A stretch of 32,000 bases of DNA from Patescibacteria group bacterium (GCA_041674405.1 JBAYVT010000002.1:120001-152000); one strand, 5' to 3'. Counted from the stretch's first letter, positions 1,038 to 22,400 are shown. Translations and numbers: made by a program. The notes: generated from the letters alone by a model not told the origin.

Positions 1038-1133
1038 TTCAGTTCTTAGCCTCTTAGTCCCAAAAGGCCCCTTTGAGTTATTAGTTTTAACTAACTTAAT
1101 TGTAGAGTAAAATATCGTCTTTTAAAACCACTT

Positions 1134-1160
1134 GACCCGCCCCGAGCTTCGGGGCGGGTC
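1134..1160 (-). terminator. GC-rich hairpin downstream of the small ORF 1181-1315
   Basis: GACCCGCCCCG-agctt-CGGGGCGGGTC forms a perfect 11-bp stem. On the minus strand it is followed by AAGTGGTTTTAAAAG, so the U-run is short and offset. Confidence 0.5.
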
Positions 1161-1180
1161 TCCAGATCTTCTTCCGACCG

Positions 1181-1315
1181 CTAGATGCGGCTCTCTGCCG
1201 TGTCGCAAGCGTCGCGGTACTCCTGGCAGGTGTACCCCGGATGACGCTCGCCGCACTCGCCGCAGACCTGTCCCTCTTCGGCTGCTTCTCTCTCTTTCTC
1301 CGCAAGTTCGCTCAT
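1181..1315 (-). CDS. Hypothetical 44-aa acidic Cys-rich protein (MSELAEKEREAAEEGQVCGECGERHPGYTCQEYRDACDTAESRI)
   Basis: Hand-translated; it is below the 60-aa cutoff of the ORF track. ATG is preceded by acaGGAGGTcaag. It has CxxC plus two further Cys, lies in a GC-rich island and is followed by the hairpin at 1134-1160. Confidence 0.45.
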   Translation of the reverse strand: MSELAEKEREAAEEGQVCGECGERHPGYTCQEYRDACDTAESRI

Positions 1316-1344
1316 CTTGACCTCCTGTGTAATGGCTGCAGGAT

Positions 1345-1572
1345 TCATCCGTGTGCGACTACCGGCTCAAAGGCCAGCATTACTTGAGAAAACGGCGACC
1401 TGGGTTGTTTGGTCGCCTTGTTGGAATCGAGGGCCCTGCGACTGCGTTTGCAGAGCCAGCATCGGTCAGAAAACCCATGATCACTCATGAATCCTCCCCG
1501 ACCATCGCAAACCGGGCACATATAGCAATCACCAGCCCTTTCACATCGGGGATAATACCAAAATTTAAGCAT
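1345..1572 (-). CDS. Hypothetical 75-aa Cys-rich protein (CYMCPVCDGRGG resembles a CxxCxGxG zinc-finger unit; a second CWLC follows)
   Basis: ORF from the track, in the GC-rich island. There is no clear SD at the ATG at 1572. An internal ATG at 1488 (MSDHGFSD...) is preceded by GGGGAGGA, so the true start is ambiguous. It lies 29 nt upstream of ORF 1181-1315. Confidence 0.35.
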   Translation of the reverse strand: MLKFWYYPRCERAGDCYMCPVCDGRGGFMSDHGFSDRCWLCKRSRRALDSNKATKQPRSPFSQVMLAFEPVVAHG

Positions 1573-1583
1573 TTAGACAATTG

Positions 1584-8112: not shown

Positions 8113-8198
8113 TGGTGCTCGGGAGAGGACTTGAACCTCCATGGATGTTACTCCGCTAGCTCCTAAGGCTAGTGCGTCTACCATTTCGCCACCCGAGC
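8113..8198 (-). tRNA. tRNA-Leu, anticodon UAG, class II long variable arm, CCA encoded
   Basis: The minus strand reads GCTCGGG TG GCG AAATGGTAGA CGC A CTAGC CTTAGGA GCTAG (variable arm CGGAGTAACATCCAT) GGAGG TTCAAGT CCTCT CCCGAGC ACCA. The acceptor pairs 7/7, and the T-loop (TTCAAGT) and D-loop (GG) conserved bases are present. Confidence 0.9.
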
Positions 8199-8927: not shown

Positions 8928-11054
8928 TTATTCTAAGTGTTTATGCGTTAAAAATTCATCAATTTTCTCCATAACTGCCGGATATTTTTCAATATTATTC
9001 GTAACGATCTTTGCCCCTTCCGCCGCTTCATCGATGAGCTCGATGTCGGAATACGATGCCATCCTGAGCTCATTATACCCCGACTGTATGGTTCCAAACA
9101 TATCACCAGCCCCGCGGTTCTTAAGATCTTGCTCTGCCAGCTTGAACCCATCAAGAATGTTTTCAAAAGATTTCAGTCGCTCTATCGCCCGCGGGTTCTG
9201 GGTACTTGAAAATACAAAGCAGAAGGACTGATGCTCGCCACGGCCAACTCTGCCACGGAATTGATGCAATTGTGCCAGCCCAAACCGCTCAGCATCTTCG
9301 ATCATCATGATCGTTGCATTCGGAATATCCACCCCTACCTCGACCACCGATGTAGATACCAATATATCAAGTTTACAAGCTTTAAATTCAGCCATTATTT
9401 CGTCTTTTGATTTTCCGCCTTTGGCGAGACCTCGCCTGCCCCGTCGGGGCGAGGCGGGCATTCGACCGTGGAGCATTCCAATCTTTAGATCAGGAAAGAT
9501 CTGTTTGCTCAATCGATTGTATTCCGCCATTACCGATTTTCTATCTTCGTCGAATAGTGTTTCTCTCGTTTGCGCTTCCGATTCTTCAATCAGCGGGCAA
9601 ATCACAAAGGCTTGGCGGCCAGATTGAATCTGCCGGCGAATGAAGTCATATGCTTTTAGCCTATTTGTCTCCTCAACAAATCTGGTTTTGATCGGTTTTC
9701 GGCCTTTCGGCATGGATTTGATAATCGACAAGTCAAGATCGCCGAAGAGCGCGAGATGCAATGATCTTGGAATTGGCGTCGCTGTCATCGATAGAAAGTG
9801 CGGCCTTAACCCTTCTCTGCTCTTCGTGAGTTCCGCCCGTTGATTTACACCGAATCTATGTTGTTCGTCCACGATCACGAGCCCCAAGTTCTTGATTTCA
9901 ACTTTGCCCTGAACCAAAGAATGCGTCCCCACTATCACCTGCCTCTCGAGCTCGCCCGCAACATTTGCCTTTCTCGTAGAGGAAGTCAAAAGCCCGACTG
10001 AAACATCTGATTTTTCTAAAAGCTTATTAAGTGTTTCAAAATGCTGTTTGGCAAGGATCTCTGTCGGCGCCATAAGTGCCGTTCGGAAGCCGGCTTTCGC
10101 AGCAATGTAGGCAGCGAATGCAGCAACCGCAGTTTTTCCGCTCCCGACATCCCCGTTAAGTAGCCTATTCATTGGTTTTTTTAATGCTAGATCTTTAGCG
10201 ATTTGCCAAACAGCCTTTTTCTGATCGGTGGTAAGCTCGAATGGCAGAGCATCTGCAAATTTCTTAAGTTCGGGATCTGCGGTCTCAATTTTTGGGGCTG
10301 ATTCTGTTGCGATCTCTTCCTTGATTAATTGCGAACGGATGGCAATCAGAAATAATTCGTCGAATGCTATTCTCCGCCTCGCTTTCGATAAGGCTTGCGA
10401 ATCCTCCGGCTCGTGGATATTTTTCAGAGCCGACCGGATTCCTAAGAGATCATATTTATCTAAAATGGGTTGTGGTAAATATTCCTCAAGTTTTGAGATT
10501 TGTCCGCCAGCCGGCGGATTAATATTTGAGATCAATCGAGCTATGAAGTAGCTCGACACACCCGCCGTCTCAGGATAAACTGGAACAATTTTTGGCCGGT
10601 TCGCTCGGTTTGGCGACTCCATCACAAGCGAATGAGAAAAAGAATCGTAGGAAACTTTGCCGTTTAATATAACTTCGGATCCAGCTTTCAGCATTTTTGC
10701 CAAGTATGGTTGATTAAACCAAACAACTTTGAGCGATCCGGAGTTGTCTTCAACTACTGCTTCTGTCACGGTAAACCCCCTGCGTCTCGTTCTTTTATTG
10801 GCAATGCCCACTACTCGAGCTCGGATCGTGAAGTTATTAGTTTTTAGTTCTAAGTTATTAGTTAAGTTACTAATTTTAGTGACTTGGGTATAGTCTTTAT
10901 ATCTTCGTGGATAATGATAAATCAAATCTTGGGCTGTATAAATTCCCAGCTTATTGAGCTTCGGTGCAACCTTTGGCCCGACACCCTTCAAATATTTAAT
11001 TTCGGTATTTAAATTTATTTCCATTTCACCAACATTATACTTTATACTTTTCAC
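8928..11054 (-). CDS. recG: ATP-dependent DNA helicase RecG
   Basis: Walker A GDVGSGKT, motif II VIVDEQHRFGV, MTATPIPRS, QLHQFRGRVGRG, and an N-terminal wedge region with LKGVGPKVAPKLNKLGI. The track start is GTG at 11054 (no SD); ATG (MEINLN) 10 codons downstream is an alternative. Confidence 0.93.
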   Translation of the reverse strand: MKSIKYNVGEMEINLNTEIKYLKGVGPKVAPKLNKLGIYTAQDLIYHYPRRYKDYTQVTKISNLTNNLELKTNNFTIRARVVGIANKRTRRRGFTVTEAVVEDNSGSLKVVWFNQPYLAKMLKAGSEVILNGKVSYDSFSHSLVMESPNRANRPKIVPVYPETAGVSSYFIARLISNINPPAGGQISKLEEYLPQPILDKYDLLGIRSALKNIHEPEDSQALSKARRRIAFDELFLIAIRSQLIKEEIATESAPKIETADPELKKFADALPFELTTDQKKAVWQIAKDLALKKPMNRLLNGDVGSGKTAVAAFAAYIAAKAGFRTALMAPTEILAKQHFETLNKLLEKSDVSVGLLTSSTRKANVAGELERQVIVGTHSLVQGKVEIKNLGLVIVDEQHRFGVNQRAELTKSREGLRPHFLSMTATPIPRSLHLALFGDLDLSIIKSMPKGRKPIKTRFVEETNRLKAYDFIRRQIQSGRQAFVICPLIEESEAQTRETLFDEDRKSVMAEYNRLSKQIFPDLKIGMLHGRMPASPRRGRRGLAKGGKSKDEIMAEFKACKLDILVSTSVVEVGVDIPNATIMMIEDAERFGLAQLHQFRGRVGRGEHQSFCFVFSSTQNPRAIERLKSFENILDGFKLAEQDLKNRGAGDMFGTIQSGYNELRMASYSDIELIDEAAEGAKIVTNNIEKYPAVMEKIDEFLTHKHLE

Positions 11055-11072: not shown

Positions 11073-11101
11073 TTGACATTTATTGACCAGCGTGATATAA
11101 G
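11073..11101 (+). promoter_or_regulatory. Sigma70-like promoter, unit A of the GC-rich island
   Basis: TTGACA (11073-11078), a 17-nt spacer ending in TGa, then TATAAG (11096-11101). Confidence 0.5.
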
Positions 11102-11159
11102 TGATCTTGTCGTACCGCGAAGCTTAGGCTCGCGGATCTTCGTCAGGGAGGTAGTGCCA

Positions 11160-11285
11160 ATGCTCGATCGTCTCGGTCACCGTCTCGCGAAGTCGCCGAT
11201 ATCGTACCCGGTTCTCGGGAAGACCATCGCCGCGATGTCGCGAGTGACCCGCTGGGTCCAGCGGGTGCACGAGATGCCTGGCTAG
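11160..11285 (+). CDS. Hypothetical 41-aa basic peptide (MLDRLGHRLAKSPISYPVLGKTIAAMSRVTRWVQRVHEMPG)
   Basis: GGGAGG lies 8 nt upstream of the ATG, and third codon positions are G/C-biased. The region is also strongly hairpin-forming, so coding status is uncertain. Confidence 0.3.
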   Translation: MLDRLGHRLAKSPISYPVLGKTIAAMSRVTRWVQRVHEMPG

Positions 11286-11604
11286 CGGTTCCACCCTGCG
11301 GACGTCCGGATAGGTGGCTGTTGAACTGGCCGTAAGATCCGGACAGCGGAAGGTGGGAGCCGGCGGTTGCGTCGTAGGTCGCAAGGACCAACGCGCCGCC
11401 GGCTCCCGCCGGCAAGCCTCATCCATCCTTTCTTCTCGGAGGTGCTATCATTATCCTCCCCACTTCCGAGATTGGTGGAGAAGGAGTTCCCTGGCGGACG
11501 CTCCCTCTCCACCACCGCCCCCCAAGACAGGGCACATCGTCGGTTCCCAAACCGGTGCTCTGTCTGAGTGTAATGCGCCGACCTCCTCGAGGCCGGCGCT
11601 TTTG
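11286..11604 (+). ncRNA. Candidate structured RNA / highly structured 3' region of unit A
   Basis: It holds successive strong hairpins. 11304-11311/11337-11344 is 8 bp perfect. 11355-11366/11396-11407 is 12 bp perfect, extendable to 15. 11474-11486/11501-11513 is 8+4 bp with 1 mismatch. 11525-11535/11555-11565 is 11 bp with one G-T, plus an inner CGGTT/AACCG. A terminator follows. No known RNA family motif recognised. Confidence 0.3.
11575..11603 (+). terminator. Intrinsic terminator of unit A
   Basis: GCGCCG-a-CCTC-ctc-GAGG-c-CGGCGC followed by TTTT. Confidence 0.55.
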
Positions 11605-11665
11605 CGTCTAATGAGGGTATTCTAACTTCTGTGATCTTCAGTGAAACAATTCTGTGATCGTATAT

Positions 11666-11694
11666 TTGACTTAATGCAGAGCTTCGTATATATT
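11666..11694 (+). promoter_or_regulatory. Sigma70-like promoter, unit B
   Basis: TTGACT (11666-11671), a 17-nt spacer, then TATATT (11689-11694). Confidence 0.5.
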
Positions 11695-11737
11695 ATTTCC
11701 GTCGCACTCATCAACTGCCCACGGGAGGGACAACCAC

Positions 11738-12064
11738 TTGCTCACCATGCTGTTTCTGATGTTGACGTTGATGGCGATCTTGCCACGGCCAGCCCTCCTG
11801 TTGGGGCTGATCAGCTTTTTCGGTCGGCGGAGCTCGCCCCCCTGCGATCCCGCTCCGGTCCTGGAGAGACCGGTCTCTGGCGCCGAGCCATCGGGCCAGG
11901 GAAAGTATCAGATGAATGTGTGGGGGTCTGAAGGACCCACCGTTGCCCCGGCCTTGCAAGCCCAAGTTTTTTCACGAGTGTCTTCAGGACACTCCTATCG
12001 CCTTACAAGCGACTTACTGACAGAGCGGCCCCTGGTATGGGTCGCTCTCGCTCTTTTTATTTAA
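11738..12064 (+). CDS. Hypothetical 108-aa protein with hydrophobic N- and C-termini
   Basis: TTG start lies 7 nt after GGGAGGGA (an in-frame ATG is at 11747). Third positions show strong G/C bias over the first two thirds. The N-terminus is LFLMLTLMAILPRPALLLGLISFF and the C-terminus is PLVWVALALFI. The terminator overlaps the 3' end. Confidence 0.35.
   Translation: MLTMLFLMLTLMAILPRPALLLGLISFFGRRSSPPCDPAPVLERPVSGAEPSGQGKYQMNVWGSEGPTVAPALQAQVFSRVSSGHSYRLTSDLLTERPLVWVALALFI
12023..12058 (+). terminator. Intrinsic terminator of unit B
   Basis: GAGCGGCCC-ctggtat-GGGTCGCTC forms 9 pairs with one G-T, followed by tcgctcTTTTTaTTT. Confidence 0.5.
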
Positions 12065-12078
12065 GCTTATCAATATTA

Positions 12079-12087
12079 TGATATAAT
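12079..12087 (+). promoter_or_regulatory. Extended -10 promoter element, unit C
   Basis: TGaTATAAT at 12079-12087. The -35 is poor. Confidence 0.4.
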
Positions 12088-12143
12088 GCTCTTGCAGAAC
12101 GCCAACAGATTTTCCACGTCGGATAACGAAGGAGGGTTGTGCT

Positions 12144-12206
12144 ATGAGGGTTCTGTTCTCTGCCTTGGCATTGCTGGTGCTGGTGGCGCTGGTGGTCGTG
12201 GCCTAG
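12144..12206 (+). CDS. Hypothetical 20-aa hydrophobic peptide (MRVLFSALALLVLVALVVVA)
   Basis: GGAGGG lies 7 nt upstream of the ATG. The peptide is a single TM-length hydrophobic stretch. It is followed by hairpins 12206-12223 and 12256-12272 and then a terminator. Confidence 0.35.
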   Translation: MRVLFSALALLVLVALVVVA

Positions 12207-12284
12207 GTCCTAGCAAGAGGACCGCGGTGGCTGGATCAACAGCAAGAATCGGATCATCCGCCCTGGGCGGATGGCGAGATTAAA

Positions 12285-12312
12285 ACGACGGCTGTCCCTA
12301 GCCGTCGTTTCT
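12285..12312. terminator. Hairpin terminator, plausibly bidirectional (unit C on plus, mnmA on minus)
   Basis: ACGACGGCT-gtccct-AGCCGTCGT is a perfect 9-bp stem, flanked by AAAA on the 5' side and TTT on the 3' side. Confidence 0.55.
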
Positions 12313-12366
12313 CGTCGTATGAGATAGTTGCCCAATAGTTTTTAGTTTTAACATTTGAGTTTTGAG

Positions 12367-13476
12367 TTATTTAATGTATCCCCCTCCCAAAACTTCATCA
12401 CCCAAGTAGAACACTGCGGATTGACCGGGAGTAATCGCTCTTTGCGGCTCATCAAATTCAACTACAATGTTTTTGATCTTTGATATTTGACCTTTGATCT
12501 CGCATGGCACCGCTGCATGCCGATATCTTATTTTGACCTTAAGGCTCATAAGTTCTTCAGCCCTTAAGTTTTGAGGTTCGATCAACCAATTCAAATCTGT
12601 CACCGTCATCTCTTTGCTATATATATCCTCATCGTCACCCACGATCAGTTGGTTTTTCGAAACATTAAATCCAACCACATAAAGTGGTTTTTTTTGAGTT
12701 TTTAGCTGACAGCTTGCAGATTGCAGTTGATCTATTCCTTTGCGTTGTCCGATTGTATAATTGACCAATCCTTCGTGAGTCCCGAGTACATTCCCCTCTT
12801 TATCGGCAATTTCGCCGGGTTTAAAATATTTCTGATCCAAATATCTTTTCAAAAAAAAGCGATAATCACGATCACCAAAAAAGCAAATTTCCTGGCTTTC
12901 CGGCTTTTCCTTGACCGGCAGATCCCACTTTTTTGCCAGTTCCCGCACATCTTTCTTCTTCATTTCTCCGAGCGGAAACAGAGTTTTTGATAGCTGATTC
13001 TGATTCAATCGATAGAGCATGTAGCTTTGATCCTTGGTGCCGTCGATACCAGCTAAAAGCTGATAACTGGCTACTGGCAGCTTCTGGATTCGCGCATAAT
13101 GTCCTGTCGCAAGATAATCACAGCCGATAGAAAGCGCTTTTTTAAGTAGAAGATCAAATTTGATTTTTTCATTACAGACAATGCACGGGTTTGGGGTTTT
13201 TAATTTTTTGTATTCATCGATGAAATAGTCAACAACATCTTTTTTGAATTCATCCACAGCGTTTATAACATAGAACGGGATACCAAGGCCGTGCGCCACC
13301 TTTCGCGCGTCTTCGAGCGCCTCATAGTTGCAACATCGATTTTCCTTTACCACATTACACATAGGGTCAGACCATAATTTCAAAAAAAGCCCGACTAATT
13401 CGTGGCCCTCATCTTTTAACATTTTTGCCACGACGGAAGAATCAACTCCACCGGACATTGCGACCGCAATTTTCAT
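12367..13476 (-). CDS. mnmA: tRNA-specific 2-thiouridylase
   Basis: The N-terminal PP-loop is VAMSGGVDSSV. Also CNEKIKF, ATGHYAR and a C-terminal GQSAVFY..GGG. The length is typical at 369 aa. Confidence 0.93.
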   Translation of the reverse strand: MKIAVAMSGGVDSSVVAKMLKDEGHELVGLFLKLWSDPMCNVVKENRCCNYEALEDARKVAHGLGIPFYVINAVDEFKKDVVDYFIDEYKKLKTPNPCIVCNEKIKFDLLLKKALSIGCDYLATGHYARIQKLPVASYQLLAGIDGTKDQSYMLYRLNQNQLSKTLFPLGEMKKKDVRELAKKWDLPVKEKPESQEICFFGDRDYRFFLKRYLDQKYFKPGEIADKEGNVLGTHEGLVNYTIGQRKGIDQLQSASCQLKTQKKPLYVVGFNVSKNQLIVGDDEDIYSKEMTVTDLNWLIEPQNLRAEELMSLKVKIRYRHAAVPCEIKGQISKIKNIVVEFDEPQRAITPGQSAVFYLGDEVLGGGYIK

Positions 13477-14878: not shown

Positions 14879-16141
14879 CTATCCAATTGGGCTTATCTTT
14901 CTTAATTTCTCAATTATTCCCGGCAATACTTCCATAAGGCGATCTATTTCTTCTTCGGTGGTGTATCTCCCAATTGTGAATCGAATTGAGCTATGTGCTC
15001 TTTCTTCGGGGTATCCAAGCGCCATTATCACATGTGAGGGTTCAAGGGAACCCGATGTACAAGCCGAACCTGTAGAGGCCGCGATCCCTAGCATATCCAA
15101 ATTGAGCAGAATCGACTCGCCTTCGATGCCGGCAAATGAAATATTTACATTATTCGGGCTTCTGCAAATATCCGTGCCATTCAATTTGGCATTTGCAATA
15201 TTATCGACAATACCCCTGATTAATTTTTCTCTCAATTTCAATGATTTTTCCGTTGCATTAGTCATTTTAAGAGATGGAAAATCCTCTGACACAATCGCCC
15301 CATCGGTGTCAGCGGCATCGCGGATTACTAGTTCGGCCGCCTTGGCAAAACCGACTATGCCCGCGACATTCTCCGTGCCCGCTCGCTTCTTGTATTCTTG
15401 TCCACCACCGGTGATTTCCGGCTTAAGCGGGGTGCCTTTTTTGGCGAATAAAAGGCCGACTCCCTTCGGCCCATAAATTTTATGAGCCGTCATTGTAAGA
15501 AGATCGACATGCAAATATTTAGTTCCCATTTCGAAATACTCTGCTGCTTGCACTGCATCGGTATGGAAATAAATTTTTTGGGCATTGGGGTTTTTTTCAA
15601 GCCGACCCAGGTTTTCCTTCTCAATCATCTTGCCAATTTCGCGGATCGGCTGTGCTGTGCCAATTTCATTATTTACATACATTACAGAAACCAGGGCAGT
15701 GTTTTTACGGATTGCTTTTACTACTTGCTGGCTATTGATTACGCCATCTTGCTCCGGGCTTATGTAGGTAGCTTCGATTTTCCCCTGTTTCTCTAGATCT
15801 TTTACGGTATCCAAAACTGCATGATGTTCAAATGTTGAAGTTACAACATGAGGTTTTTTATTCATGCCTTTATAGTCTGGCAACATCGATTCGATCACGC
15901 CGCGGATAGCCAGATTATCCGATTCCGACCCGCCAGATGTAAATAGAATTTCGCTTGGAGCGCAATCAAGAAAAAATGCCAAAAATTCTCTGGCTTTGTC
16001 GACTGCCGCTCTCGCCTCCTGCCCAAACCCGTGAACCGACGAAGGATTGCCGAAACTCACGCCAAAATATGGCGTCATTGCTTCAATAACTTCCGGCGCA
16101 ACTGGCGTGGTCGCAGCATTATCTAGATATATTCTCTTCAC
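14879..16141 (-). CDS. nifS: Cysteine desulfurase (NifS/IscS family)
   Basis: N-terminal IYLDNAATTP, PLP-lysine context TMTAHKIYGPKG, and active-site loop STGSACTSG. GTG start. Confidence 0.92.
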   Translation of the reverse strand: MKRIYLDNAATTPVAPEVIEAMTPYFGVSFGNPSSVHGFGQEARAAVDKAREFLAFFLDCAPSEILFTSGGSESDNLAIRGVIESMLPDYKGMNKKPHVVTSTFEHHAVLDTVKDLEKQGKIEATYISPEQDGVINSQQVVKAIRKNTALVSVMYVNNEIGTAQPIREIGKMIEKENLGRLEKNPNAQKIYFHTDAVQAAEYFEMGTKYLHVDLLTMTAHKIYGPKGVGLLFAKKGTPLKPEITGGGQEYKKRAGTENVAGIVGFAKAAELVIRDAADTDGAIVSEDFPSLKMTNATEKSLKLREKLIRGIVDNIANAKLNGTDICRSPNNVNISFAGIEGESILLNLDMLGIAASTGSACTSGSLEPSHVIMALGYPEERAHSSIRFTIGRYTTEEEIDRLMEVLPGIIEKLRKISPIG

Positions 16142-16362
16142 TTATCTTCCTTTGATTTCTCAACGATCGATACTACTTTTCTTAAATCAGAAACGCACTT
16201 CTTGCAATTTTCCTGTTTGGACAAATTATCAAAATCAGATTTAGATATTAAATAAGCCACCGGCTTGGAATACCTGACAACCTCAAACACATCTCCGTCC
16301 TCAACTTCTTTAAGAACCTTAGAAATGTTATTTTGCAATTCGTTTACGTTGATATTTTTCAT
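16138..16362 (-). CDS. Phd/YefM-family antitoxin-like protein (no adjacent toxin)
   Basis: The N-terminus MKNINVNELQNNISKVLKEVEDGDVFEVVRYSKPVAYLISKSDFDNL matches the Phd/YefM pattern. The C-terminal tail carries CKKC. Its stop overlaps the nifS GTG (GTGA). Confidence 0.55.
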   Translation of the reverse strand: MKNINVNELQNNISKVLKEVEDGDVFEVVRYSKPVAYLISKSDFDNLSKQENCKKCVSDLRKVVSIVEKSKEDK

Positions 16363-16451: not shown

Positions 16452-19400
16452 TTAAGATTTAGAATTTCTCTTTTCCATCTCAATCTTTTTATTTACGGCA
16501 GAAATTTCTTCATCCGTATCAAACCTTACCGGTTTTGGCAGAGTGTAACCTTCCTTGGTAGCTAAAATTGTGTACCTACCCCGTTTCAAAATCGCCGAAA
16601 ACTTACCTTTGTCATCAGTTACCGCAGTCTTTACAAGCCTTGTGTTATCTCCGGTCATTATCCTAACCAACGTTAGGCCGATAGGCTCGCCCTTATGTCG
16701 GTCTACCACCATGCTCCATGGCGACTTTCTTATGACCAGTGAGAAATTGATAACCCAAAGCAGAATATAGCCGGCAAGGATCAGATAATTTAACAAATTT
16801 GGGTCATGAATTAAATTGTTCAAGACCAATATGGTACCGGCCGTAAGTACAACAATCGAAGCATAATTGAAGAATCTTTCCATTTTTCTAAGCCAACCCA
16901 AGATTGCATGAATACCAGAAAGGCTTTTGCCATTTATACTCATTATGATCGTCGGCACCAAAAATCCTTTGGTATAGCTATCAATCTCATATATTTTCCC
17001 TGTGTCAAAATCATAATATTGATCCGGTTTTGGTGCGAGCTGGTACTTGTCTTTCTTCGCGATGATTTTGTATTTGCCCGGAGGTTCGGCGAATCCGTAC
17101 ACGCCTGATTTATCGGTGGTTGTTGTCTCAATAACCCTTTCTGTGCCATCTTCGCCTACTTTAATCAAGCTAACCATCGCTCCAGAAAGCGGCAAACCGG
17201 TTCCATCCTCGAGCACTTGGCCCCATTTTTTGCGTTTCTTTTTAACCGTACCGAAAGATAGAATGGAATAAACAATTATATGAATGACTTCCTTGAGTGA
17301 GAATAAAGTTATTAAGTTTGTTGCGGGTGCCAATCCGGCGACAACTACTGCCATGCCCAGAGCTGCTGCGGCAGTCACTGGCGGAGCAGCCTCTTTTGAG
17401 ATACCAACAGCTGCATAAACTTTTTCTATTCCCCCTGCAACAATATCGATTGAAACCGCCACATCTTCGACGCCGCCGACAATGCCACCAATAATAACTT
17501 CACCGATTGTTTCTTTTCGTACATTTACTGACGCAGCAGCCTTCACATCACCGAATGAAGCTTGAACGGTGTTTTCAAATGAGCCAACTTCCTTACCTGC
17601 GGTGAATAATCCGGTTTGGTCAATCTCCCCGCCACCATTCATAACCGACCACACGATAATTGCTGTTGGAATTTCTGAATCATCTGAGGCAAAAGCTTTT
17701 GCACTAAACTGCACGGAGTCTTCAACTTTTATTTTCGCACTTGTCGGTGAAATGATAATGTATGATGCAGTTTTTTCCGGATTTCCCAGAGTTGTCACCT
17801 CAGACGCAGTAGAAAAATCAGTTTCAACGTTGCTATTATTTCTTGCCTTAAGCCTATAAGCATAATTCGTAGAAGCTGCAAGGCCTGTGTTTATAAATCC
17901 GTCGCTTCCACCCCAGTCGGCATACAATTGCCAATCGGGACTATCGGAAAATGCCCCATCGGAATGCCTGACATACTTACCTGCGGTGTCATTGTAAATC
18001 GCATATCGTGTGTTAGCTGGGTTGCCGTTTTGGTTAATCGCAATTTTTACTGATGACTCGGAAACTACTGAAAGAATTGGGGCATCTGGTGTGTTCGCAA
18101 GAGTATAAGATGTAGCAAAATTTGACTTTTCCGTTCCTTTCCTATTGGTCACGGTAACTTGGCGAGTATATGCCGTATTCGGAGCAAGAGATTGTTCTAG
18201 CCAGGACGAGGCAGAAGCTGCAAGTGTTCCCGAGAGCGGATTGCCAGCGGCATCTAACACTGCCCAACTGGTGTGATCATCGTCGGTATTTGACCAAACC
18301 CAATTAATCTGGCTGGTAACAATGTCTGTTCCCCTGAAATCTGTAGAGGGTGTAGGCCCAAGGCAATTCGCCGTTGTGAAATTTATGATTGCAGAATAAT
18401 TCCCCGCGCCATTCTGGTTTGACGTTGCGGACACCTTGGCGTAATACTTTGTTTTTCTTGCAAGGCCCGATAAAGAAGTGGCTGTTGTGCTGATATCCGA
18501 AATTGTGCCTTTATTTGAAGCTCCGGAATCCGTTCCGTACGAAAGAGTATATTTATCCGCGCCCTCTGGCGCAATCCATGTCAGGTTCGCCGAAGTTCTG
18601 CAAACGGCATTTGCTTCTAGGCTCGCTGGAGCAGCTGGCGGAGTGACTTTTGCCGAAGATGGAGAATAAGTTGTGTCGGTATTGTCCCCATTTCTTGCTT
18701 TGGCCTTGATCCAATACTGGGTATTTGGATCAAGATTAGCCAATGTATATGATGTACTTGTCTGCCAGGACATGCCGGCGGGATCGGTAAAATCCGTGCC
18801 ATTTATTGAATATTGGATCCAATAGTTTGTTCCTGATGGATTCAAACTTGGGCTAATTGTTCCTGTTACGAAATATGCCCCCGCCACCGTTGAAACCGTC
18901 GGCATATTGGCAAGCGTGTACTTTGGAGATGAATAGGCGCTTGTTGAGTTGCCGGCGTCATTAAACGCAACAACTTTAGCACAATATTGTGTATTTATAT
19001 CCTTACCATCAACGTCTTGCGAGGTTTCCCCGGCACCAGTCGTATAGTCGGGAGAATCTGGATAAGAAGCCTGTGAACAATCAGAATTCGGAGTGGTAGA
19101 AATATAAACCTTGAATCCGGTTTCATCAGATGAGTTGTCGTCCCAAGTCACTTGGAAAGAATCGTTTTGGATGGTGCCTATTGCTGCATTAGTTGGCGCA
19201 CTCGGCGCTGTAACACAAGAGCCGGTGGGAGAAATATTCCAATCGGTATTACTTCCCCCATCCGTAGAATAAGTAGCACAGAAAGAGGCACCCGAATTGG
19301 TAGAATTTGAGATGGTGGCGTACGAAATAGTTGCGGTGGCCGGGTTAATATTCCAGCCACCAGAACCACCAGACCTCTTAAGAACTACATGGCTTCCCGA

Positions 19401-22400
19401 AGTTCCGGTTACCGTCCATGTGCCAGATATCGTTTGGGTCGAGCCCGCAGAAAAGGATAAGGTTTTGCCTGCAGTAGCGGCAGTGAGGTTATTAAAAGTC
19501 GTATCTCCCTCTATCAAGGAGTCACCAGTTAGCGTAACTGTACCGCTCCCAGGAGTGAAGATACCGCCTGCATGGTTCCAACCGCCAGATACACTCATGG
19601 TGGATGGAGCACTGAAGCTAGCATTACCGTTTAAGATGAAATTACCAATGTTCATCGAAGGGTTATTTGTGATTCCATCAACATCGGTCTGGTTGGTTCC
19701 ATCACCAATTGTAAGATTGTTAGTAACACCAAAGCTACCGGAAGATAGAGTCAAAGTTTTGTTTCCAACAAAGCTCTGCCAGATAAAACCGGTCATATCG
19801 CCAAAAGAGTGATAAGGACCTGAACCAACATTATAGGTACCAATGACGGCACCAGTCGAGCCGTTAAGCTTTGTTATGGTGTTGCCGCCAATGCTCGTTA
19901 CCCATACATTGCCGTCGCCATCAATTCCCGGATGGTCGCCATTGCCGATCGAATAAGTTCCGATTACTGCACCAGTCGAGCCGTTAACTTTGTAGACCGT
20001 TCCGCTATTAACAACCCAGACATTGCCGCTGCCATCAACTGCCAGATTAGCACCAGGAACCGAGTAGATATCAATGACAGCGCCGGTCGAACCGTTAAGC
20101 TTGGTAATGCCAATATCGCCGTCGCTAGCCGTCCAGACATTCCCATCACCGTCGACTGCTATGCTAAAAGGAGCGCCGTTAACCGAATAAGTGCCGATCA
20201 GTGCACCAGTTGAGCTGTCAAGTTTAGTAACGTTACCACTTCCGTGATTGCAAATCCAAACATTGCCACTACGATCAGCCGCCACTCCCGAAGGACTAGT
20301 ACCCGTTGAATATGTGCCCATGACTGCACCAGTCGAGCCATTAACCTTATTAATATGGCTGCTATCGTAGGGGACCCAGACATTGCCAGCATTATCAACG
20401 CCCGGGTTACCACCACCGACCGCATAAGTGCCGATCAGTGCGCCGGTCGAACCATTGAGTTTAGTAACGTTGCCGCTGTAAGGATTGCCGACCCAGACAT
20501 TGCCACTGCCATCAACTGCCACACCATAAGGACCAGTACCCACCGCGTAAGTTCCAATGACGGCACCAGTTGAACTGTTAAGTTTGGTTATATTGTTGCT
20601 ACCGCTATTAGTCACCCAAACATACGGTGTTACCGCTGGATCCAGCAATTCTAGGTTATAATAATTTGCCGCCGTAATGTTTGTGTTAGAAGAAGCACGA
20701 TATATAAAGGTAGAAGTCGAAGCAGTAAATGTACCCGTTTTAACAAACGGCGTGCCCGAACCGGTCAAAGTTATTGTCCGATTTGAAGCATCGAAGGTAC
20801 CAGCATTGATCGTCAGTATGTTTGTAGTTGTGATATCCCCGGCTGCAGTGAAAGTCGTTCCCGCATGATCAAGGTAAAGATTGTAGTAAGTGGTCGCCGT
20901 AATATTAGTTGCCAATGCTCCGGTATACTTGAGGGTTGATGTGCCCTCTTGGAAAGTTCCGGTTACTACCAATGGCGTTCCTGGCGCGGCCAAAGTAATC
21001 GTTCTGGAGGATGCAGCAAATGTGCCGGCATTGATGGTAAGGACTCCATTGATTGTGATATTTCCGGCAGCAGTAAAGGTTGTGCCGGTATGGTCTGCAG
21101 CGTAGAGGTTGCAATAGGTAATAGCATTAATGTTTGTTGCGCTTGTTCCTTGGAATTTGACTGTCGATGTACTTTCGGTAAATGTGCCGCTGATGGATAG
21201 TGGATCACCTGATTCTGTCAAAACTAAGGTAGTATTATCCAGATTGACAACAGCAGTTGCCGGGATTTTAAGATTTGGGATAGTGGAGGTGGGAGCAGAT
21301 GATGAATTAGGTCTCCAGGTATCAGTGCCTATGACATAGAGTATCTGGGAGGTTAGAGTTGCTTGATTGTAGGGCATAGCTAGGTCATTGGTTGCATTAC
21401 CAATATCAAAGAGGATATCAGCATCAGACGAAACTGAACCATCGTATTGTGATAAATCGGTATTGGATAGTGTTTGGGCAGTACCATTACCGACGACCAA
21501 ATGCTGCTCAAAGAGAGTAACTCCAGTAATATCTCCCGATGTGTACTTGGTAACAGCATTGGCTCGATGGGATTCAGTCGCGCCATCGATGAATACCGTA
21601 ATTACATCACCGGCAGAGGGTTCGGTAACGCCAGAAATCGTCCAGGAACCAGAAGCAGTGGTGCCTGTAGCTGCATCCAAGGTGCCATTGATCGCTACCT
21701 TGACCGTCTCACCATCAGCACAAGCGGTTGATTCATCATACTGCTTACAAGTGCCGGAGATAGAGAAGGATGAACAGCCACTTGTTACAGTTGGAGCAGG
21801 AAGGGTACCATTGAACGAGGTCCAAGTCCCAGTCGTTGGCAAGACAGTGGGAGCACCGGCACTACCCCAGTCCACATAAGCCGACTGATCAGCAGGCGCA
21901 AGAAGTTTGCTGGTGTCCGACAACAGGTACCAACTACTGTCCCATGGATCTACTGCCAAAACCCTATTACTTGTATTGGTGTAATAAGGATTACTCCTAG
22001 CATCTACACTCGCATAAGTATACGACCCATTATAGCTTGAATCGCCCGCTCCAGAAAAAGTATACGACGAACATGCGGAGCATGATCCGGTTAAACTAAT
22101 ATTCCAGCCGGTATTTCCCCCGCCGTCAACTGAGTAAGTCGCACAGAAACTACCTGTATTACTAGACTTAGAAACATTGGCGTAGGATATTGCAACATTA
22201 TTACTTGCAGATAAATTCCAGTTGGCACCGCCCGATGGAGCTAAAGTAATTAAGTTACCGGAAGTCCCAGCAATATTAATTGCATAATTGAAATTATAGT
22301 TTGAACCCGAGTTGAAAGTTAGGGTTGAGGGCGCAGTTGTGTTGGTAAATGTACGCGTGACCGACGTTGCCCCAGTGAAGGTGAAATTTGTATTAGCATG

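What the first reader, a model, noticed from the sequence alone, without database searches (positions are those of the whole stretch)
11073..12312. 1.2-kb GC-rich island between recG and mnmA with three promoter-to-terminator units on the opposite strand
The flanking genes are AT-rich and on the minus strand. I counted 19 of 60 G+C in line 13141-13200 (inside mnmA), against 43 of 60 in line 11341-11400. Within the island there are three consecutive plus-strand units, each opening with a good sigma70-type promoter: TTGACA-17-TATAAG at 11073, TTGACT-17-TATATT at 11666, and TGaTATAAT at 12079. Each closes with a hairpin terminator (about 11575-11603, 12023-12058 and 12285-12312). Each has a GGAGG-type SD in front of a small ORF: a 41-aa basic peptide, a 108-aa membrane-like protein, and a 20-aa hydrophobic peptide. 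The compositional jump, opposite orientation and self-contained expression signals suggest acquired small-gene or RNA cassettes, not native intergenic DNA. I recognise no family for any of the three.
Basis: partly seen in the sequence, partly recalled or inferred. Interest (0 to 1): 0.75.

Follow-up and report, generated by a model that had tools for sequence, protein, structure and literature searches.

The report
Three conserved GC-rich small-gene units
Between two housekeeping genes of an uncultured, AT-rich Patescibacteria (CPR) bacterium sit three GC-rich mini-genes, each with its own promoter and terminator: a ~500-base highly folded RNA, a small protein gene and a 20-residue membrane micropeptide gene. 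All three recur in related genomes, belong to no described family, and have no known function.

Summary
Window 11100-12310 is 58-66% G+C against about 42% around it. It splits into three plus-strand units, each with a promoter, a GGAGG-type ribosome-binding site and a hairpin terminator. It is not an assembly artefact, because four assemblies carry it.

The mnmA-recG gap is a hypervariable slot in this Berkelbacteria-like lineage. It is nearly empty in some genomes and holds unrelated GC3-rich orphan cassettes in others. This trio, however, is not a recent import. Relatives whose MnmA is only 69-71% identical carry homologous units in the same place.

- **U1** is a strongly structured RNA (fold z-scores -7 to -9 in three genomes). 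Its stems differ in sequence between genomes but still pair, and it has C-rich single-stranded linkers. Its 41-aa ORF is not conserved.
- **U2** encodes a protein of about 58 aa.
- **U3** encodes a conserved 20-24-aa all-hydrophobic peptide. Codon changes are mostly synonymous and the stop codon is conserved.

Nothing matches Rfam, Pfam, PHROGs or NCBIfam. Function is inferred only. The leading idea is membrane micropeptides plus an anti-Shine-Dalgarno-like regulatory RNA, with a type I toxin-antitoxin-like system as the main rival.

The parts
11073..11101 (+). U1 promoter: TTGACA-17-TG-extended TATAAG
   Evidence: Read directly. Homologous promoters of the form TTGAC(A/T)-17-TGnTATAAA occur in L097, L098, L099 and L101.
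11108..11604 (+). U1 transcript (predicted, about 500 nt): a structured RNA with a short 5' ORF
   Evidence: Fold z-score is -6.2 for 11102-11606. The G+C-rich body is bounded by the promoter and the terminator.
11146..11285 (+). U1 ribosome-binding site (GGGAGG, 11146-11151) and 41-aa basic ORF (11160-11285, stop TAG)
   Evidence: G+C at codon positions 1/2/3 is 0.66/0.49/0.80. A ribosome-binding site plus short ORF sits at the same place in homologues (18, 22, 31 and 34 aa), but the sequence is conserved only between L098 and L099 (13 of 20 residues).
11286..11604 (+). U1 3' structured domain, non-coding
   Evidence: Fold z-score is -8.0. G+C is flat across the three codon phases, and stops occur in all three frames. 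The homologous domains fold with z = -9.2 in L098 and -6.8 in L097.
11434..11471 (+). U1 hairpin with a 16-nt loop, CUAUCAUUAUCCUCCC (anti-Shine-Dalgarno-like CCUCC)
   Evidence: closing pair probability 0.98. ATCATTATCC recurs in the U1-like RNA of L099. Shorter ATCAT or TCAT variants seen by eye in the L097, L098 and L101 U1 RNAs are too short to count as evidence.
11473..11514 (+). U1 hairpin A: a purine-rich 5' arm (GGUGGAGAAGGAG) paired to a pyrimidine-rich 3' arm (CUCCCUCUCCACC)
   Evidence: Similar hairpins in L098 and L097 are matched by covariance model R1.
11515..11526 (+). U1 conserved single-stranded C-rich linker, CCGCCCCCCAAG
   Evidence: The motif CC(C/T)CCCAAG sits in the same position in L098 and L097.
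11525..11565 (+). U1 hairpin B, directly after the linker
   Evidence: MFE folds of the three sequences, made independently, give the same architecture. The stems are ACAGGGCAC/GTGCTCTGT (window), CTGGGCCGAT/ATCGGCCCAG (L098) and CCAGACCGTC/GACGGTCTGG (L097). Seven of nine stem positions differ on both sides with pairing kept (read). Model R1 hits L098 6899-7008 at 19.4 bits, E = 0.037.
11576..11604 (+). U1 terminator hairpin plus TTTT
11627..11656 (+). TTCTGTG / TTCAGTG / TTCTGTG repeats (spacing 10 and 13 nt) just upstream of the U2 -35 box
   Evidence: Similar arrays of 6 and 9 copies lie upstream of the GC-rich units in L007.
11666..11694 (+). U2 promoter: TTGACT-17-TATATT
   Evidence: 10 of 12 matches. 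It is conserved in L098 (about 76% identity over 70 nt) and L097.
11700..12058 (+). U2 transcript (predicted, about 360 nt): small-protein mRNA with a structured 3' UTR
11723..12064 (+). U2 ribosome-binding site (GGGAGGG, 11723-11729) and TTG-initiated ORF (11738-12064). It is 108 aa as assembled. The likely true product is about 58 aa, ending at TGA 11913-11915.
   Evidence: TTG-initiated ORFs in the same position give 55 aa in L098 and 58 aa in L097, which share 35% identity (pairwise E = 4e-11). An exhaustive phmmer search finds only a self-variant.
11837..11842 (+). C6 homopolymer run. A C5 allele exists in L096, so this is a frameshift site.
   Evidence: The C5 allele gives a 58-aa ORF that stops 2 nt before the conserved GTGTGGGGG hairpin, as in L097.
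11919..11994 (+). U2 3' UTR hairpins: 11922-11941 (GGGGGUC..GACCC) and 11976-11994 (GAGUGUC..GACACUC)
   Evidence: Changes that keep pairing are seen against L097 (GGGCC..GGCCC) and L098 (GATGCCC..GGGCATC).
12022..12058 (+). U2 terminator
12079..12087 (+). U3 promoter: extended -10 box TGaTATAAT, with no good -35 box
   Evidence: The L098 homologue has a TTGACA -35 box.
12094..12312 (+). U3 transcript (predicted, about 220 nt)
   Evidence: Fold z-score is -3.6. The ribosome-binding site and start codon lie inside a 5' hairpin in the MFE fold.
12129..12206 (+). U3 ribosome-binding site (AAGGAGGG, 12129-12136) and 20-aa ORF (12144-12206): MRVLFSALALLVLVALVVVA, stop TAG
   Evidence: Homologous ORFs are MLRVLVCALVLLALLAAVAVVA (L098) and MSRKLLSALALVALVALAAVTIVA (L103). 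Window versus L098: 6 identical codons, 9 synonymous-only differences and 6 hydrophobic replacements. GRAVY is 2.0-2.8.
12196..12207 (+). Invariant 12-mer TCGTGGCCTAGG, spanning the last codons and the stop codon of U3
   Evidence: It is identical in the window, L098 and L103 and absent from the other fetched loci.
12284..12312 (+). U3 terminator hairpin with a weak T-tail

Best explanation
The island is a set of three independently transcribed small genes. It is old and conserved within one sub-lineage of Berkelbacteria-like Patescibacteria. It sits in the mnmA-recG gap, which across the wider lineage is a hypervariable slot for G+C-rich, self-contained promoter-to-terminator units.

- **U1** is a structured RNA of about 500 nt. 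A short, poorly conserved ORF opens it. The conserved part is a chain of hairpins, in which purine-rich arms pair with pyrimidine-rich arms, separated by C-rich single strands (CCGCCCCCCAAG and the loop ..AUCCUCCC).
- **U2** is the mRNA of a small protein of about 58 aa with a basic C-terminal tail, followed by a structured 3' UTR. In the assembled strain a C6 run shifts the frame, so the ORF reads on to 108 aa.
- **U3** is the mRNA of a 20-24-aa, entirely hydrophobic peptide that most likely inserts into the membrane. A 5' hairpin is predicted to occlude its ribosome-binding site and start codon.

**Shown here:** the anatomy, conservation of the units in relatives, translation-level constraint on U3, protein-level conservation of U2 between L097 and L098, and strong RNA structure in U1 with stems that change sequence but keep pairing.

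**Inferred only:**
- The peptides act in the membrane.
- The C-rich motifs of U1 pair with GGAGG-type ribosome-binding sites, including those of U2 and U3, to control translation. This would resemble C-rich-loop regulatory RNAs such as RoxS/RsaE or RNAIII.
- The high G+C reflects RNA structure plus an originally foreign, GC3-rich codon usage.
For: **The island is real.** The composition jump is clear, and four assemblies carry the island.

**The slot is variable but syntenic.** The order iscU-folD-mnmA-[gap]-recG-comEA is conserved, while the gap ranges from 370 to 3400 bp with unrelated contents.

**Homologues of the trio.**
- blastn links window 11961-12235 to L098 (E = 9e-7) and 11664-11730 to L098 (E = 2e-5).
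- The U3 region matches L103 (E = 3e-7).

**U1.**
- Fold z-scores are -8.0 (window), -9.2 (L098) and -6.8 (L097). Ordinary genes and most GC-rich coding cassettes score between about -2.7 and +1.8; one exception, the L004 ORF, scores -6.4.
- All three genomes show the same hairpin-linker-hairpin architecture with different stem sequences.
- A covariance model built from the window alone finds L098.

**U2.**
- The promoter, leader, ribosome-binding site and TTG start are conserved.
- The L097 and L098 proteins share 35% identity (E = 4e-11).
- The C5 allele gives 58 aa ending at the conserved hairpin.

**U3.**
- Three homologous ORFs show many synonymous codon changes and share an invariant 12-mer around the stop codon.
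- TAG is a genuine stop in this genome.

**Composition.** GC3 is 0.80 for the U1 ORF and 0.85 for the U3 ORF, against 0.38-0.45 in host genes.

Against: - There are no expression data, so promoters, transcript ends and translation are all predicted.
- Only 3 to 5 homologous sequences exist per unit. Covariation therefore rests on few, related sequences, and the alignments were partly made by eye because MAFFT could not align the hairpins.
- The window's U2 protein is not significantly similar to the L097 protein (E = 0.27). Its homology rests on position, promoter, start type, length and stop context.
- The C5 allele comes from one short 744-bp contig and could be an assembly error in a homopolymer.
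- No complementarity beyond chance was found between U1, U2 and U3, so a regulatory link among the three is speculative.
- The origin of the high G+C and GC3 is unexplained.
Confidence: 0.55

Rival explanations
1. The island is a type I toxin-antitoxin-like module. U3 (and perhaps the hydrophobic N-terminus of U2) would be a small membrane toxin held in check by mRNA structure and by a neighbouring RNA such as U1 acting as a trans-encoded antitoxin.
For: - The U3 peptide is 20-24 aa and all hydrophobic (GRAVY 2.0-2.8).
- It has its own promoter and terminator, and its ribosome-binding site and start codon lie in a 5' hairpin.
- It is intergenic and lies next to structured RNAs.
- Fozo et al. 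(PMC2887945) describe type I toxins as under 70 aa, with a transmembrane region, often far from flanking genes and unannotated.
Against: - No antisense promoter lies opposite U3.
- No complementarity beyond chance exists between U3 and U1 or U2 in the window or L098.
- The peptide lacks the polar or aromatic C-terminal cluster typical of type I toxins. It ends in VVA.
- U3 is single copy, not a tandem repeat.
- No match to any toxin family was found.
- Toxicity was not tested.
Confidence: 0.2
2. This is the first reader's view: the three units are recently acquired foreign cassettes (moron-like or integron-like) inserted between recG and mnmA.
For: - GC3 is 0.66-0.85 against 0.38-0.45 in host genes.
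- The slot is hypervariable, with empty sites in L049 and L052.
- Other relatives carry unrelated GC3-rich orphan genes there. One is an Lnt-like gene whose closest named relatives are Verrucomicrobia.
Against: - Homologous U1, U2 and U3 units occupy the same slot in genomes whose MnmA is only 69-71% identical, and the units themselves have diverged to about 60-76% identity. Any acquisition therefore predates that divergence.
- The promoters are host-type and carry lineage-specific TTCTGTG repeats.
- No integrase, attC-like sites or flanking direct repeats were seen.
- There are no matches in phage or plasmid collections. The one viral-contig pattern hit was a chance match.
Confidence: 0.1
3. 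All three units are purely non-coding structured RNAs, and the small ORFs are incidental.
For: - Fold z-scores are very strong for U1 and moderate for U3.
- The U1 ORF is not conserved.
- Gene callers skipped almost the whole island.
Against: - The U3 ORF keeps its start, length class, hydrophobic character and stop across three genomes, with 6-9 synonymous-only codon changes per pair.
- The U2 ORFs of L097 and L098 align without gaps at 35% identity.
- Strong GGAGG sites lie 5-9 nt before every start codon.
Confidence: 0.1
4. The units are decayed remnants of larger secreted-protein cassettes. U3 would be a signal peptide cut short by a nonsense mutation, and U1 and U2 would be frameshifted genes.
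For: - The U3 peptide resembles the signal peptides of GC-rich secreted orphan proteins in the same slot of other relatives, for example MKTTLLVLVALLALLASVAMA| in L043.
- U2 carries a frameshift-prone C-run.
Against: - The U3 stop codon and its 12-nt context are invariant in three diverged genomes.
- No longer ORF can be reconstructed in U1 in any frame.
- The U1 structure signal (z = -8) is unlike that of coding cassettes.
Confidence: 0.04
5. The island is an assembly chimera that joins GC-rich foreign reads into an AT-rich contig.
For: The only support is the sharp composition boundaries.
Against: - The same junctions appear in four assemblies made by different pipelines.
- Homologous islands lie in the same slot in relatives.
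Confidence: 0.01

Closest known systems
Dual-function / C-rich-motif regulatory RNAs (S. aureus RNAIII with hld; RsaE/RoxS of Firmicutes)
   Same: - U1 is about 500 nt with a short ORF near its 5' end, followed by a chain of stable hairpins. It carries unpaired C-rich motifs (CCUCCC loop, CCCCCCAAG linker) that could pair with GGAGG ribosome-binding sites.
- RoxS uses C-rich regions to pair with G-rich target sequences (PMC5419742).
- The RNAIII comparison (about 514 nt, encodes the 26-aa delta-haemolysin, C-rich loops) comes from my own knowledge.
   Different: - There is no sequence or covariance-model similarity.
- The host is a CPR bacterium.
- No targets have been identified, and pairing with U2 or U3 is not above chance.
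- The U1 ORF is not conserved.
Type I toxin-antitoxin loci with very small hydrophobic toxins (ibs-sib, shoB-ohsC, zorO-orzO)
   Same: - The peptide is tiny and all hydrophobic. At 20-24 aa it is close to Ibs (about 19 aa, from my own knowledge).
- The unit is an unannotated intergenic gene with its own promoter and terminator and a structured mRNA, next to other small RNA genes (PMC2887945).
   Different: - No antisense or complementary RNA was found.
- There is no polar or aromatic C-terminus and no tandem duplication.
- There is no family match, and toxicity is untested.
Alphaproteobacterial ar14 ('cuckoo' RNAs with CCUCCUCCC motifs), Rfam RF02344
   Same: This is the best, though weak, Rfam match to 11486-11604. 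Both have hairpins with CCUCC-type motifs and a terminator.
   Different: The score is 24.8 bits against a gathering score of 58.8, with E = 0.037 in a search of only 1.6 kb. It is not a member.
Phage 'morons' and integration hotspots between core genes
   Same: Both are autonomous promoter-gene-terminator units of deviant composition inserted between conserved genes. The contents differ between related genomes, and empty sites exist. The moron concept comes from my own knowledge.
   Different: - The setting is a bacterial chromosome, not a prophage.
- There is no recombinase, att site or phage or plasmid match.
- This trio is inherited across a sub-lineage.
Large structured bacterial ncRNAs found as GC-rich intergenic regions in AT-rich genomes (OLE, GOLLD, ROOL, HEARO, raiA)
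   Same: U1 is a long, highly structured, GC-rich intergenic RNA in an AT-rich genome. This is the signature that GC-rich intergenic-region pipelines such as DIMPL exploit (PMC8723152).
   Different: - None of these Rfam families matches.
- U1 is known from only a handful of genomes.
- It evolves by module turnover rather than keeping a fixed core.

Membership tests
Any Rfam 15 RNA family | Covariance-model score at or above the family's gathering threshold | tested here: not met
   The only hit in the window is a tRNA-Leu at 8116-8198. In the E-value mode the best island hit is ar14 at 24.8 bits against a gathering score of 58.8. There are no hits in 18 related loci.
tRNA / tmRNA | ARAGORN detection | tested here: not met
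   Only tRNA-Leu at 8113-8198 is found.
Type I toxin (criteria of Fozo et al. 2010, PMC2887945) | Protein under 70 aa with a transmembrane stretch (at least 10 hydrophobic residues in 15) | tested here: met
   The U3 peptides are 20-24 aa and almost entirely A, L, V, F, I or C. GRAVY is 2.0-2.8.
Type I toxin (criteria of Fozo et al. 2010, PMC2887945) | Cluster of polar, charged or aromatic residues at the C-terminus | tested here: not met
   All three peptides end in (V/I)VA.
Type I toxin-antitoxin | Antitoxin RNA: either cis-antisense or an adjacent RNA complementary to the toxin mRNA | tested here: not met
   No promoter lies on the minus strand opposite U3. The longest perfect complementarity of U3 to U1 or U2 is 8 nt, which equals the shuffle expectation, in both the window and L098. 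Imperfect pairing is not excluded.
Type I toxin-antitoxin | Tandem duplication of the locus in one intergenic region (frequent, not obligatory) | tested here: not met
   The three units share no repeat family, and no other copy exists in the window.
Type I toxin-antitoxin | Toxicity of the peptide on overexpression | not testable with these tools
   This needs an experiment.
Pfam / NCBIfam / PHROGs protein families | Profile HMM hit above the curated cut-off for the 41-aa, 108/58-aa or 20-aa products or their homologues | tested here: not met
   Searches return nothing. The best hit is OapA_N at E = 0.66.
Any known protein (U2 ORF) | A homologue among 1.84 billion representative proteins | tested here: not met
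   Only a self-variant, P0001, was found. The other four hits are low-complexity matches to giant proteins.
Integron gene cassette | attC recombination site at the cassette end, an integrase nearby, and a cassette that usually lacks its own promoter | tested here: not met
   - The hairpins at the unit ends are short (about 25 nt), G+C-rich and followed by T-runs, so they look like terminators.
- Each unit has its own promoter.
- The neighbours are recG, comEA, mnmA and folD.
- No dedicated attC model was run.
Dual-function regulatory RNA (RNAIII-like), functional class only | One transcript both encodes a translated peptide and base-pairs with target mRNAs | not testable with these tools
   The anatomy is compatible. 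Translation and targets are unknown.

The most novel reading that the evidence does not exclude
U1 would be the first member of a new class of large (0.5-0.8 kb), extremely structured RNAs in CPR bacteria. It is built from repeated Shine-Dalgarno/anti-Shine-Dalgarno-like hairpins and C-rich linkers. It would act as a sponge or mimic for ribosome-binding sites, or for the 16S rRNA 3' end, and so gate translation of neighbouring micropeptides. The mnmA-recG slot would be a dedicated expression platform, with host promoters and TTCTGTG arrays, in which these episymbiotic bacteria keep and exchange GC-rich orphan genes, many of them secreted proteins.
Probability: 0.15. Interest if true: 0.8.

Novelty: new variant of a known kind. 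Interest (0 to 1): 0.58.

Why it matters
- **Hidden gene content.** CPR/Patescibacteria have tiny genomes and are assumed to carry few regulatory RNAs and little accessory DNA. Here gene callers missed a 1.2-kb stretch almost completely, yet it holds three conserved genes: a large, highly structured RNA, a small protein and a 20-aa membrane micropeptide.
- **A lineage-wide pattern.** The same slot in related genomes collects G+C-rich orphan cassettes, several of which encode secreted proteins. If these are effectors or regulators of the episymbiotic lifestyle, they are new candidates for how these organisms interact with hosts.
- **A practical lesson.** G+C-rich islands bounded exactly by a promoter and a terminator are a simple way to find unannotated genes in AT-rich uncultured genomes.

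Tried and rejected
- **Known structural RNAs.** RNase P, tmRNA, 6S, SRP and all other Rfam families were rejected.
- **Internal repeats.** The three units are not paralogues of each other. They have no other copy in the window, so a MITE or REP origin is rejected.
- **Phage or plasmid origin.** blastn against both collections found nothing. A U3 pattern scan of viral contigs gave one hit, which lies inside a helicase-like ORF on the other strand and is a chance match.
- **Strain variation in L003.** I hoped to use it for covariation, but apart from 3 substitutions its differences are runs of N and one deletion.
- **Hidden longer ORF in U1.** Translating all three frames shows stops in each.
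- **Stop-codon recoding of U3's TAG.** TAG ends iscS, and no in-frame TAG occurs in the 4058-aa and 1110-aa genes.
- **Secreted orphan proteins as one family.** The L007b protein has no homologue other than itself among 5.8 billion proteins, and blastn and tblastx between islands found nothing beyond gene ends.
- **MAFFT alignment of U1 hairpin domains.** It failed. I used a single-sequence covariance model and separate folds instead.
- **RNA-RNA duplex prediction between units.** It gave meaningless full-length duplexes for these GC-rich RNAs. I replaced it with an exact-complementarity test, which was negative.
- **Literature.** Searches for GC-rich islands or structured RNAs in Berkelbacteria and CPR found nothing relevant.


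Full report

Yes. In 200-nt windows the G+C fraction rises from 0.34-0.44 in the recG 5' end to 0.625-0.66 across 11100-11599. It dips to 0.455-0.50 at 11500-11799, rises to 0.615-0.64 at 11700-11999, dips again, reaches 0.58 at 12100-12299, and falls to about 0.40 in mnmA. The whole 32-kb window otherwise averages about 0.42-0.45.

- TTGACA 11073-11078, 17 nt, TATAAG 11096-11101. This -10 box lacks the canonical last T but is preceded by TG.
- TTGACT 11666, 17 nt, TATATT ending at 11694. This was the best hit of the promoter scan.
- TGaTATAAT at 12079-12087.
- Terminator-like hairpins at 11576-11604, 12022-12058 and 12284-12312.
- GGAGG-type ribosome-binding sites 7-9 nt before ATG 11160 (41 aa), TTG 11738 (108 aa) and ATG 12144 (20 aa).

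The G+C-rich body of each unit begins a few bases after its -10 box and ends with its terminator. The spacers that carry the promoters are AT-rich.

The flanking genes are recG (8928-11054, minus strand) and mnmA (12367-13476, minus strand). They sit in a conserved order: iscS-iscU-folD-mnmA-[gap]-recG-comEA.

**2. Not an assembly artefact.**

Contigs encoding the identical MnmA protein were found in three independent assemblies: ENA ERZ27247358, Logan SRR6484325 and JGI 3300037067. The island is 100% identical in the first two. The JGI copy differs by three substitutions, one 15-nt deletion and runs of N. A fourth, short contig (ENA ERZ27247363, L096) carries an allele.

**3. Whose genome, and what do relatives have at this site?**

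The best MnmA matches are MAGs labelled Patescibacteria or Candidatus Berkelbacteria (a few are labelled Saccharibacteria) at no more than 71% identity. The species has no close sequenced relative.

Synteny around the gap is conserved, but the gap length varies:
- 370 bp in L049 and 550 bp in L052, which are near-empty
- 970 bp in L006
- 1.0-3.4 kb in L004, L005, L007, L039, L041, L043 and L078

Many of these gaps contain islands of 0.57-0.66 G+C on the strand opposite mnmA. By blastn and tblastx these islands are unrelated to each other and to the window.

Their units share one grammar: a near-consensus TTGACA-17-TATATT promoter, a GGAGG site, an ORF and a terminator. Several ORFs encode orphan proteins of 158-259 aa with clear N-terminal signal peptides.

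These ORFs have GC3 of 0.70-0.86, against 0.38-0.45 in host genes. They have no Pfam, PHROG or NCBIfam family. One that I tested has no homologue other than itself among 5.8 billion proteins.

One cassette, in L039, is an Lnt-like CN-hydrolase. Apart from one unnamed hit at 49%, its relatives score 33-37% identity, and the few named ones are Verrucomicrobia. This is a plausible horizontal acquisition from a diderm bacterium.

**4. The trio itself is conserved.**

Using the protein database I fetched contigs of the closest MnmA relatives.

- **L098** (MnmA 69% identical) carries three units in the same order and orientation. blastn links window 11664-11730 and 11961-12235 to it (E = 2e-5 and 9e-7).
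- **L097** (71%) carries U1 and U2.
- **L103** (70%; a short contig) carries U3 next to mnmA.
- **L099/L100 and L101** carry U1-like units.

Motif searches show three signatures restricted to these genomes among about 100 fetched loci. They are the U2 promoter signature, the U3 12-mer GTGGCCTAGG context, and the U1 linker followed by its hairpin.

The trio is therefore older than the divergence of these genomes. It is not a recent insertion.

**5. Unit 3: a conserved micropeptide gene.**

The three ORFs are:
- MRVLFSALALLVLVALVVVA (window)
- MLRVLVCALVLLALLAAVAVVA (L098)
- MSRKLLSALALVALVALAAVTIVA (L103)

Between the window and L098, 6 codons are identical, 9 differ only synonymously (for example AGG/CGA/AGA for Arg, and GCC/GCA/GCG for Ala), and 6 change one hydrophobic residue for another. 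That is the pattern of a translated sequence.

The last codons, the TAG stop and the next base (TCGTGGCCTAGG, 12196-12207) are invariant. TAG is a real stop in this genome: iscS ends in TAG, and there is no in-frame TAG in the 4058-aa and 1110-aa genes. U3 is therefore not a truncated pseudogene.

The predicted mRNA (about 220 nt, z = -3.6) buries its ribosome-binding site and start codon in a 5' hairpin. A three-sequence consensus fold shows 21 pairs kept through changes on both sides, but three sequences is too few for statistics.

**6. Unit 2: a small protein, not 108 aa.**

The promoter, leader, GGGAGGG site and a TTG start 5-8 nt downstream are conserved in the window, L097 and L098.

The ORFs of L098 (55 aa) and L097 (58 aa) align without gaps at 35% identity (pairwise E = 4e-11).

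In the window, a run of six C (11837-11842) keeps the frame open to 108 aa. The ORF then reads through the 3' hairpins and even through the terminator.

The L096 allele has five C. Its three nearby substitutions are, in this frame, one synonymous change and one Ile-to-Leu replacement. It yields a 58-aa product that stops (TGA 11913-11915 in window coordinates) 2 nt before a conserved hairpin, GTGTGGGGG.., exactly as in L097.

The 3' hairpins keep pairing through changes on both sides: GAGTGTC/GACACTC versus GATGCCC/GGGCATC, and GGGTC/GACCC versus GGGCC/GGCCC.

An exhaustive phmmer search of 1.84 billion representative proteins found only the self-variant.

*Caveats.* The window's protein is not significantly similar to the L097 protein (E = 0.27). 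The C5 allele rests on one short contig.

**7. Unit 1: a large structured RNA.**

The region 11286-11606 shows no codon-phase signal and has stops in all three frames. It folds far better than shuffled controls, with z = -8.0.

The homologous domains give z = -9.2 (L098) and -6.8 (L097). For comparison, recG, mnmA and most GC-rich coding cassettes score between about -2.7 and +1.8. One exception, the L004 ORF, scores -6.4.

The promoters are homologous (TTGAC(A/T)-17-TGnTATAA(A/G)). A ribosome-binding site plus short ORF always follows, but its length (18-41 aa) and sequence vary. Only L098 and L099 share a recognisable peptide, with 13 of 20 residues identical.

The 3' domain is modular. It is built from hairpins whose 5' arms are purine-rich (GGUGGAGAAGGAG, UCUCGGAGGUG) and whose 3' arms are pyrimidine-rich. 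These are separated by C-rich single strands.

One module is clearly shared: hairpin A, then the linker CC(C/U)CCCAAG, then hairpin B. Hairpin B has completely different stems in the three genomes, and 7 of 9 positions changed on both sides with pairing kept.

A covariance model built from the window sequence alone recovers the L098 module (19.4 bits, E = 0.037 in 236 kb). With filters off it also recovers a second similar module in L098 and one in L097.

A 16-nt loop, CUAUCAUUAUCCUCCC (11445-11460), presents a CCUCC anti-Shine-Dalgarno-like sequence. The 10-mer ATCATTATCC recurs in the U1-like RNA of L099.

No Rfam family matches. The best hit, ar14, is far below its threshold.

**8. How it most likely works.**

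*Shown:* three autonomous, conserved genes. One is a structured RNA, one encodes a small protein, and one encodes a hydrophobic micropeptide.

*Inferred:*
- The U3 peptide, and the hydrophobic N-terminus of the window's U2 product, insert into the membrane.
- Their translation is limited by mRNA structure.
- The C-rich loops and linkers of U1 pair with GGAGG-type ribosome-binding sites, as the C-rich regions of RoxS/RsaE pair with G-rich targets (PMC5419742) and as RNAIII does (my own knowledge).

I found no complementarity between the units beyond chance. A regulatory link among them therefore remains a hypothesis.

The type I toxin-antitoxin reading is the main rival. U3 meets the size and hydrophobicity criteria of Fozo et al. 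(PMC2887945). It lacks the polar C-terminus, tandem copies and any identifiable antisense or complementary RNA.

**9. Why G+C-rich?**

For U1 and the UTRs, selection for stable structure in an AT-rich genome is sufficient. For the ORFs, a GC3 of 0.80-0.85 points to an origin in, or exchange with, a G+C-rich gene pool. The rest of the slot's cargo in relatives shows the same bias.

The units nevertheless use host-type promoters. In the window's U2 and in L007, these are preceded by phased TTCTGTG repeats, which also occur at other promoters of these genomes. I cannot resolve this tension. Ancient acquisition followed by domestication is the simplest account.

**10. Verdict.**

The finding is real and better than ordinary intergenic DNA. 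It contains three unannotated, conserved genes of unknown families in an uncultured lineage, including a large and very structured RNA.

It is not a recent foreign insertion. One of the three proposed products (108 aa) is probably a frameshift artefact, and another (41 aa) is not conserved. Function remains inferred.

I rate it a new variant of known kinds (regulatory RNA, small protein and micropeptide genes in a variable slot), of moderate to good interest.

Noticed in passing
window 1120-1575 (minus strand): A second GC-rich (0.55-0.60) promoter-to-terminator unit lies between two minus-strand genes. It has a TTGTCT-17-TATTAT promoter near 1575-1547 and a terminator hairpin at about 1160-1133. 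It carries two small Cys-rich ORFs, one at 1345-1488 (or from 1572 with a CxxCxGxG motif) and one of 44 aa at 1181-1315 with CGECG. Its fold z-score is -4.2. No family matches.
   Followed up: partly
window 11627-11656; L007 6328-6393 and 8255-8367; L005 3887-3916; L006 2188-2218: Phased arrays (10-14 nt spacing) of TTCTGTG/TCTGTG lie just upstream of -35 boxes. There are 3 copies before the window's U2 and 6 and 9 copies before the GC-rich units of L007. They also occur between iscU and mnmA or folD in relatives. They look like binding sites for a lineage-specific transcription factor.
   Followed up: partly
window 11837-11842 versus L096 (ENA ERZ27247363): A C6/C5 length polymorphism in a homopolymer switches the U2 ORF between 108 aa and 58 aa. 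It could be phase variation or a homopolymer assembly error.
   Followed up: partly
window 12207-12340; L098 and L103 equivalents: The frame downstream of the U3 TAG stays open for 41-50 codons in all three genomes. The window and L103 share QES(D/V)H 13-14 codons after the stop. TAG is a normal stop in host genes, so this is probably RNA-level conservation, but programmed read-through is not excluded.
   Followed up: partly
L039 6068-7321 (minus strand): A GC3-rich (0.70) 417-aa Lnt-like apolipoprotein N-acyltransferase (CN_hydrolase) gene sits in the mnmA-recG slot of a CPR genome. Apart from one unnamed hit at 49%, its relatives score 33-37% identity, and the few named ones are Verrucomicrobia. 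This is probably horizontal transfer from a diderm bacterium.
   Followed up: yes
L007 6512-7057 (minus strand) and flanks: A 181-aa IS200/RAYT-like ORF (identified by eye, not searched) lies between the two GC-rich islands of L007. Repeated GAAGCTTGCTCTAC-type elements surround it.
   Followed up: no
L005 6760-6850 and 5790-5880: A repeat of about 100 nt (hairpin CCCCTCCTT..AAGGAGGGG followed by CAGTG(T/G) repeats) precedes each of the two GC-rich units of L005. It looks as if a shared upstream module had been duplicated together with each cassette.
   Followed up: no
window 16452-28628 (minus strand): A giant 4058-aa ORF (only a weak fn3 hit on record) is followed by a 1110-aa ORF. A PhdYeFM-type antitoxin gene lies directly upstream of iscS (about 16138-16362).
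   Followed up: no
L004 versus L042: These two related strains are 95% identical overall, but divergence is mosaic. There are no differences across the GC-rich cassette and most of iscU-folD-mnmA, while differences cluster at the mnmA 3' end and the recG 5' end. This suggests recombination tracts bounding the slot.
   Followed up: partly
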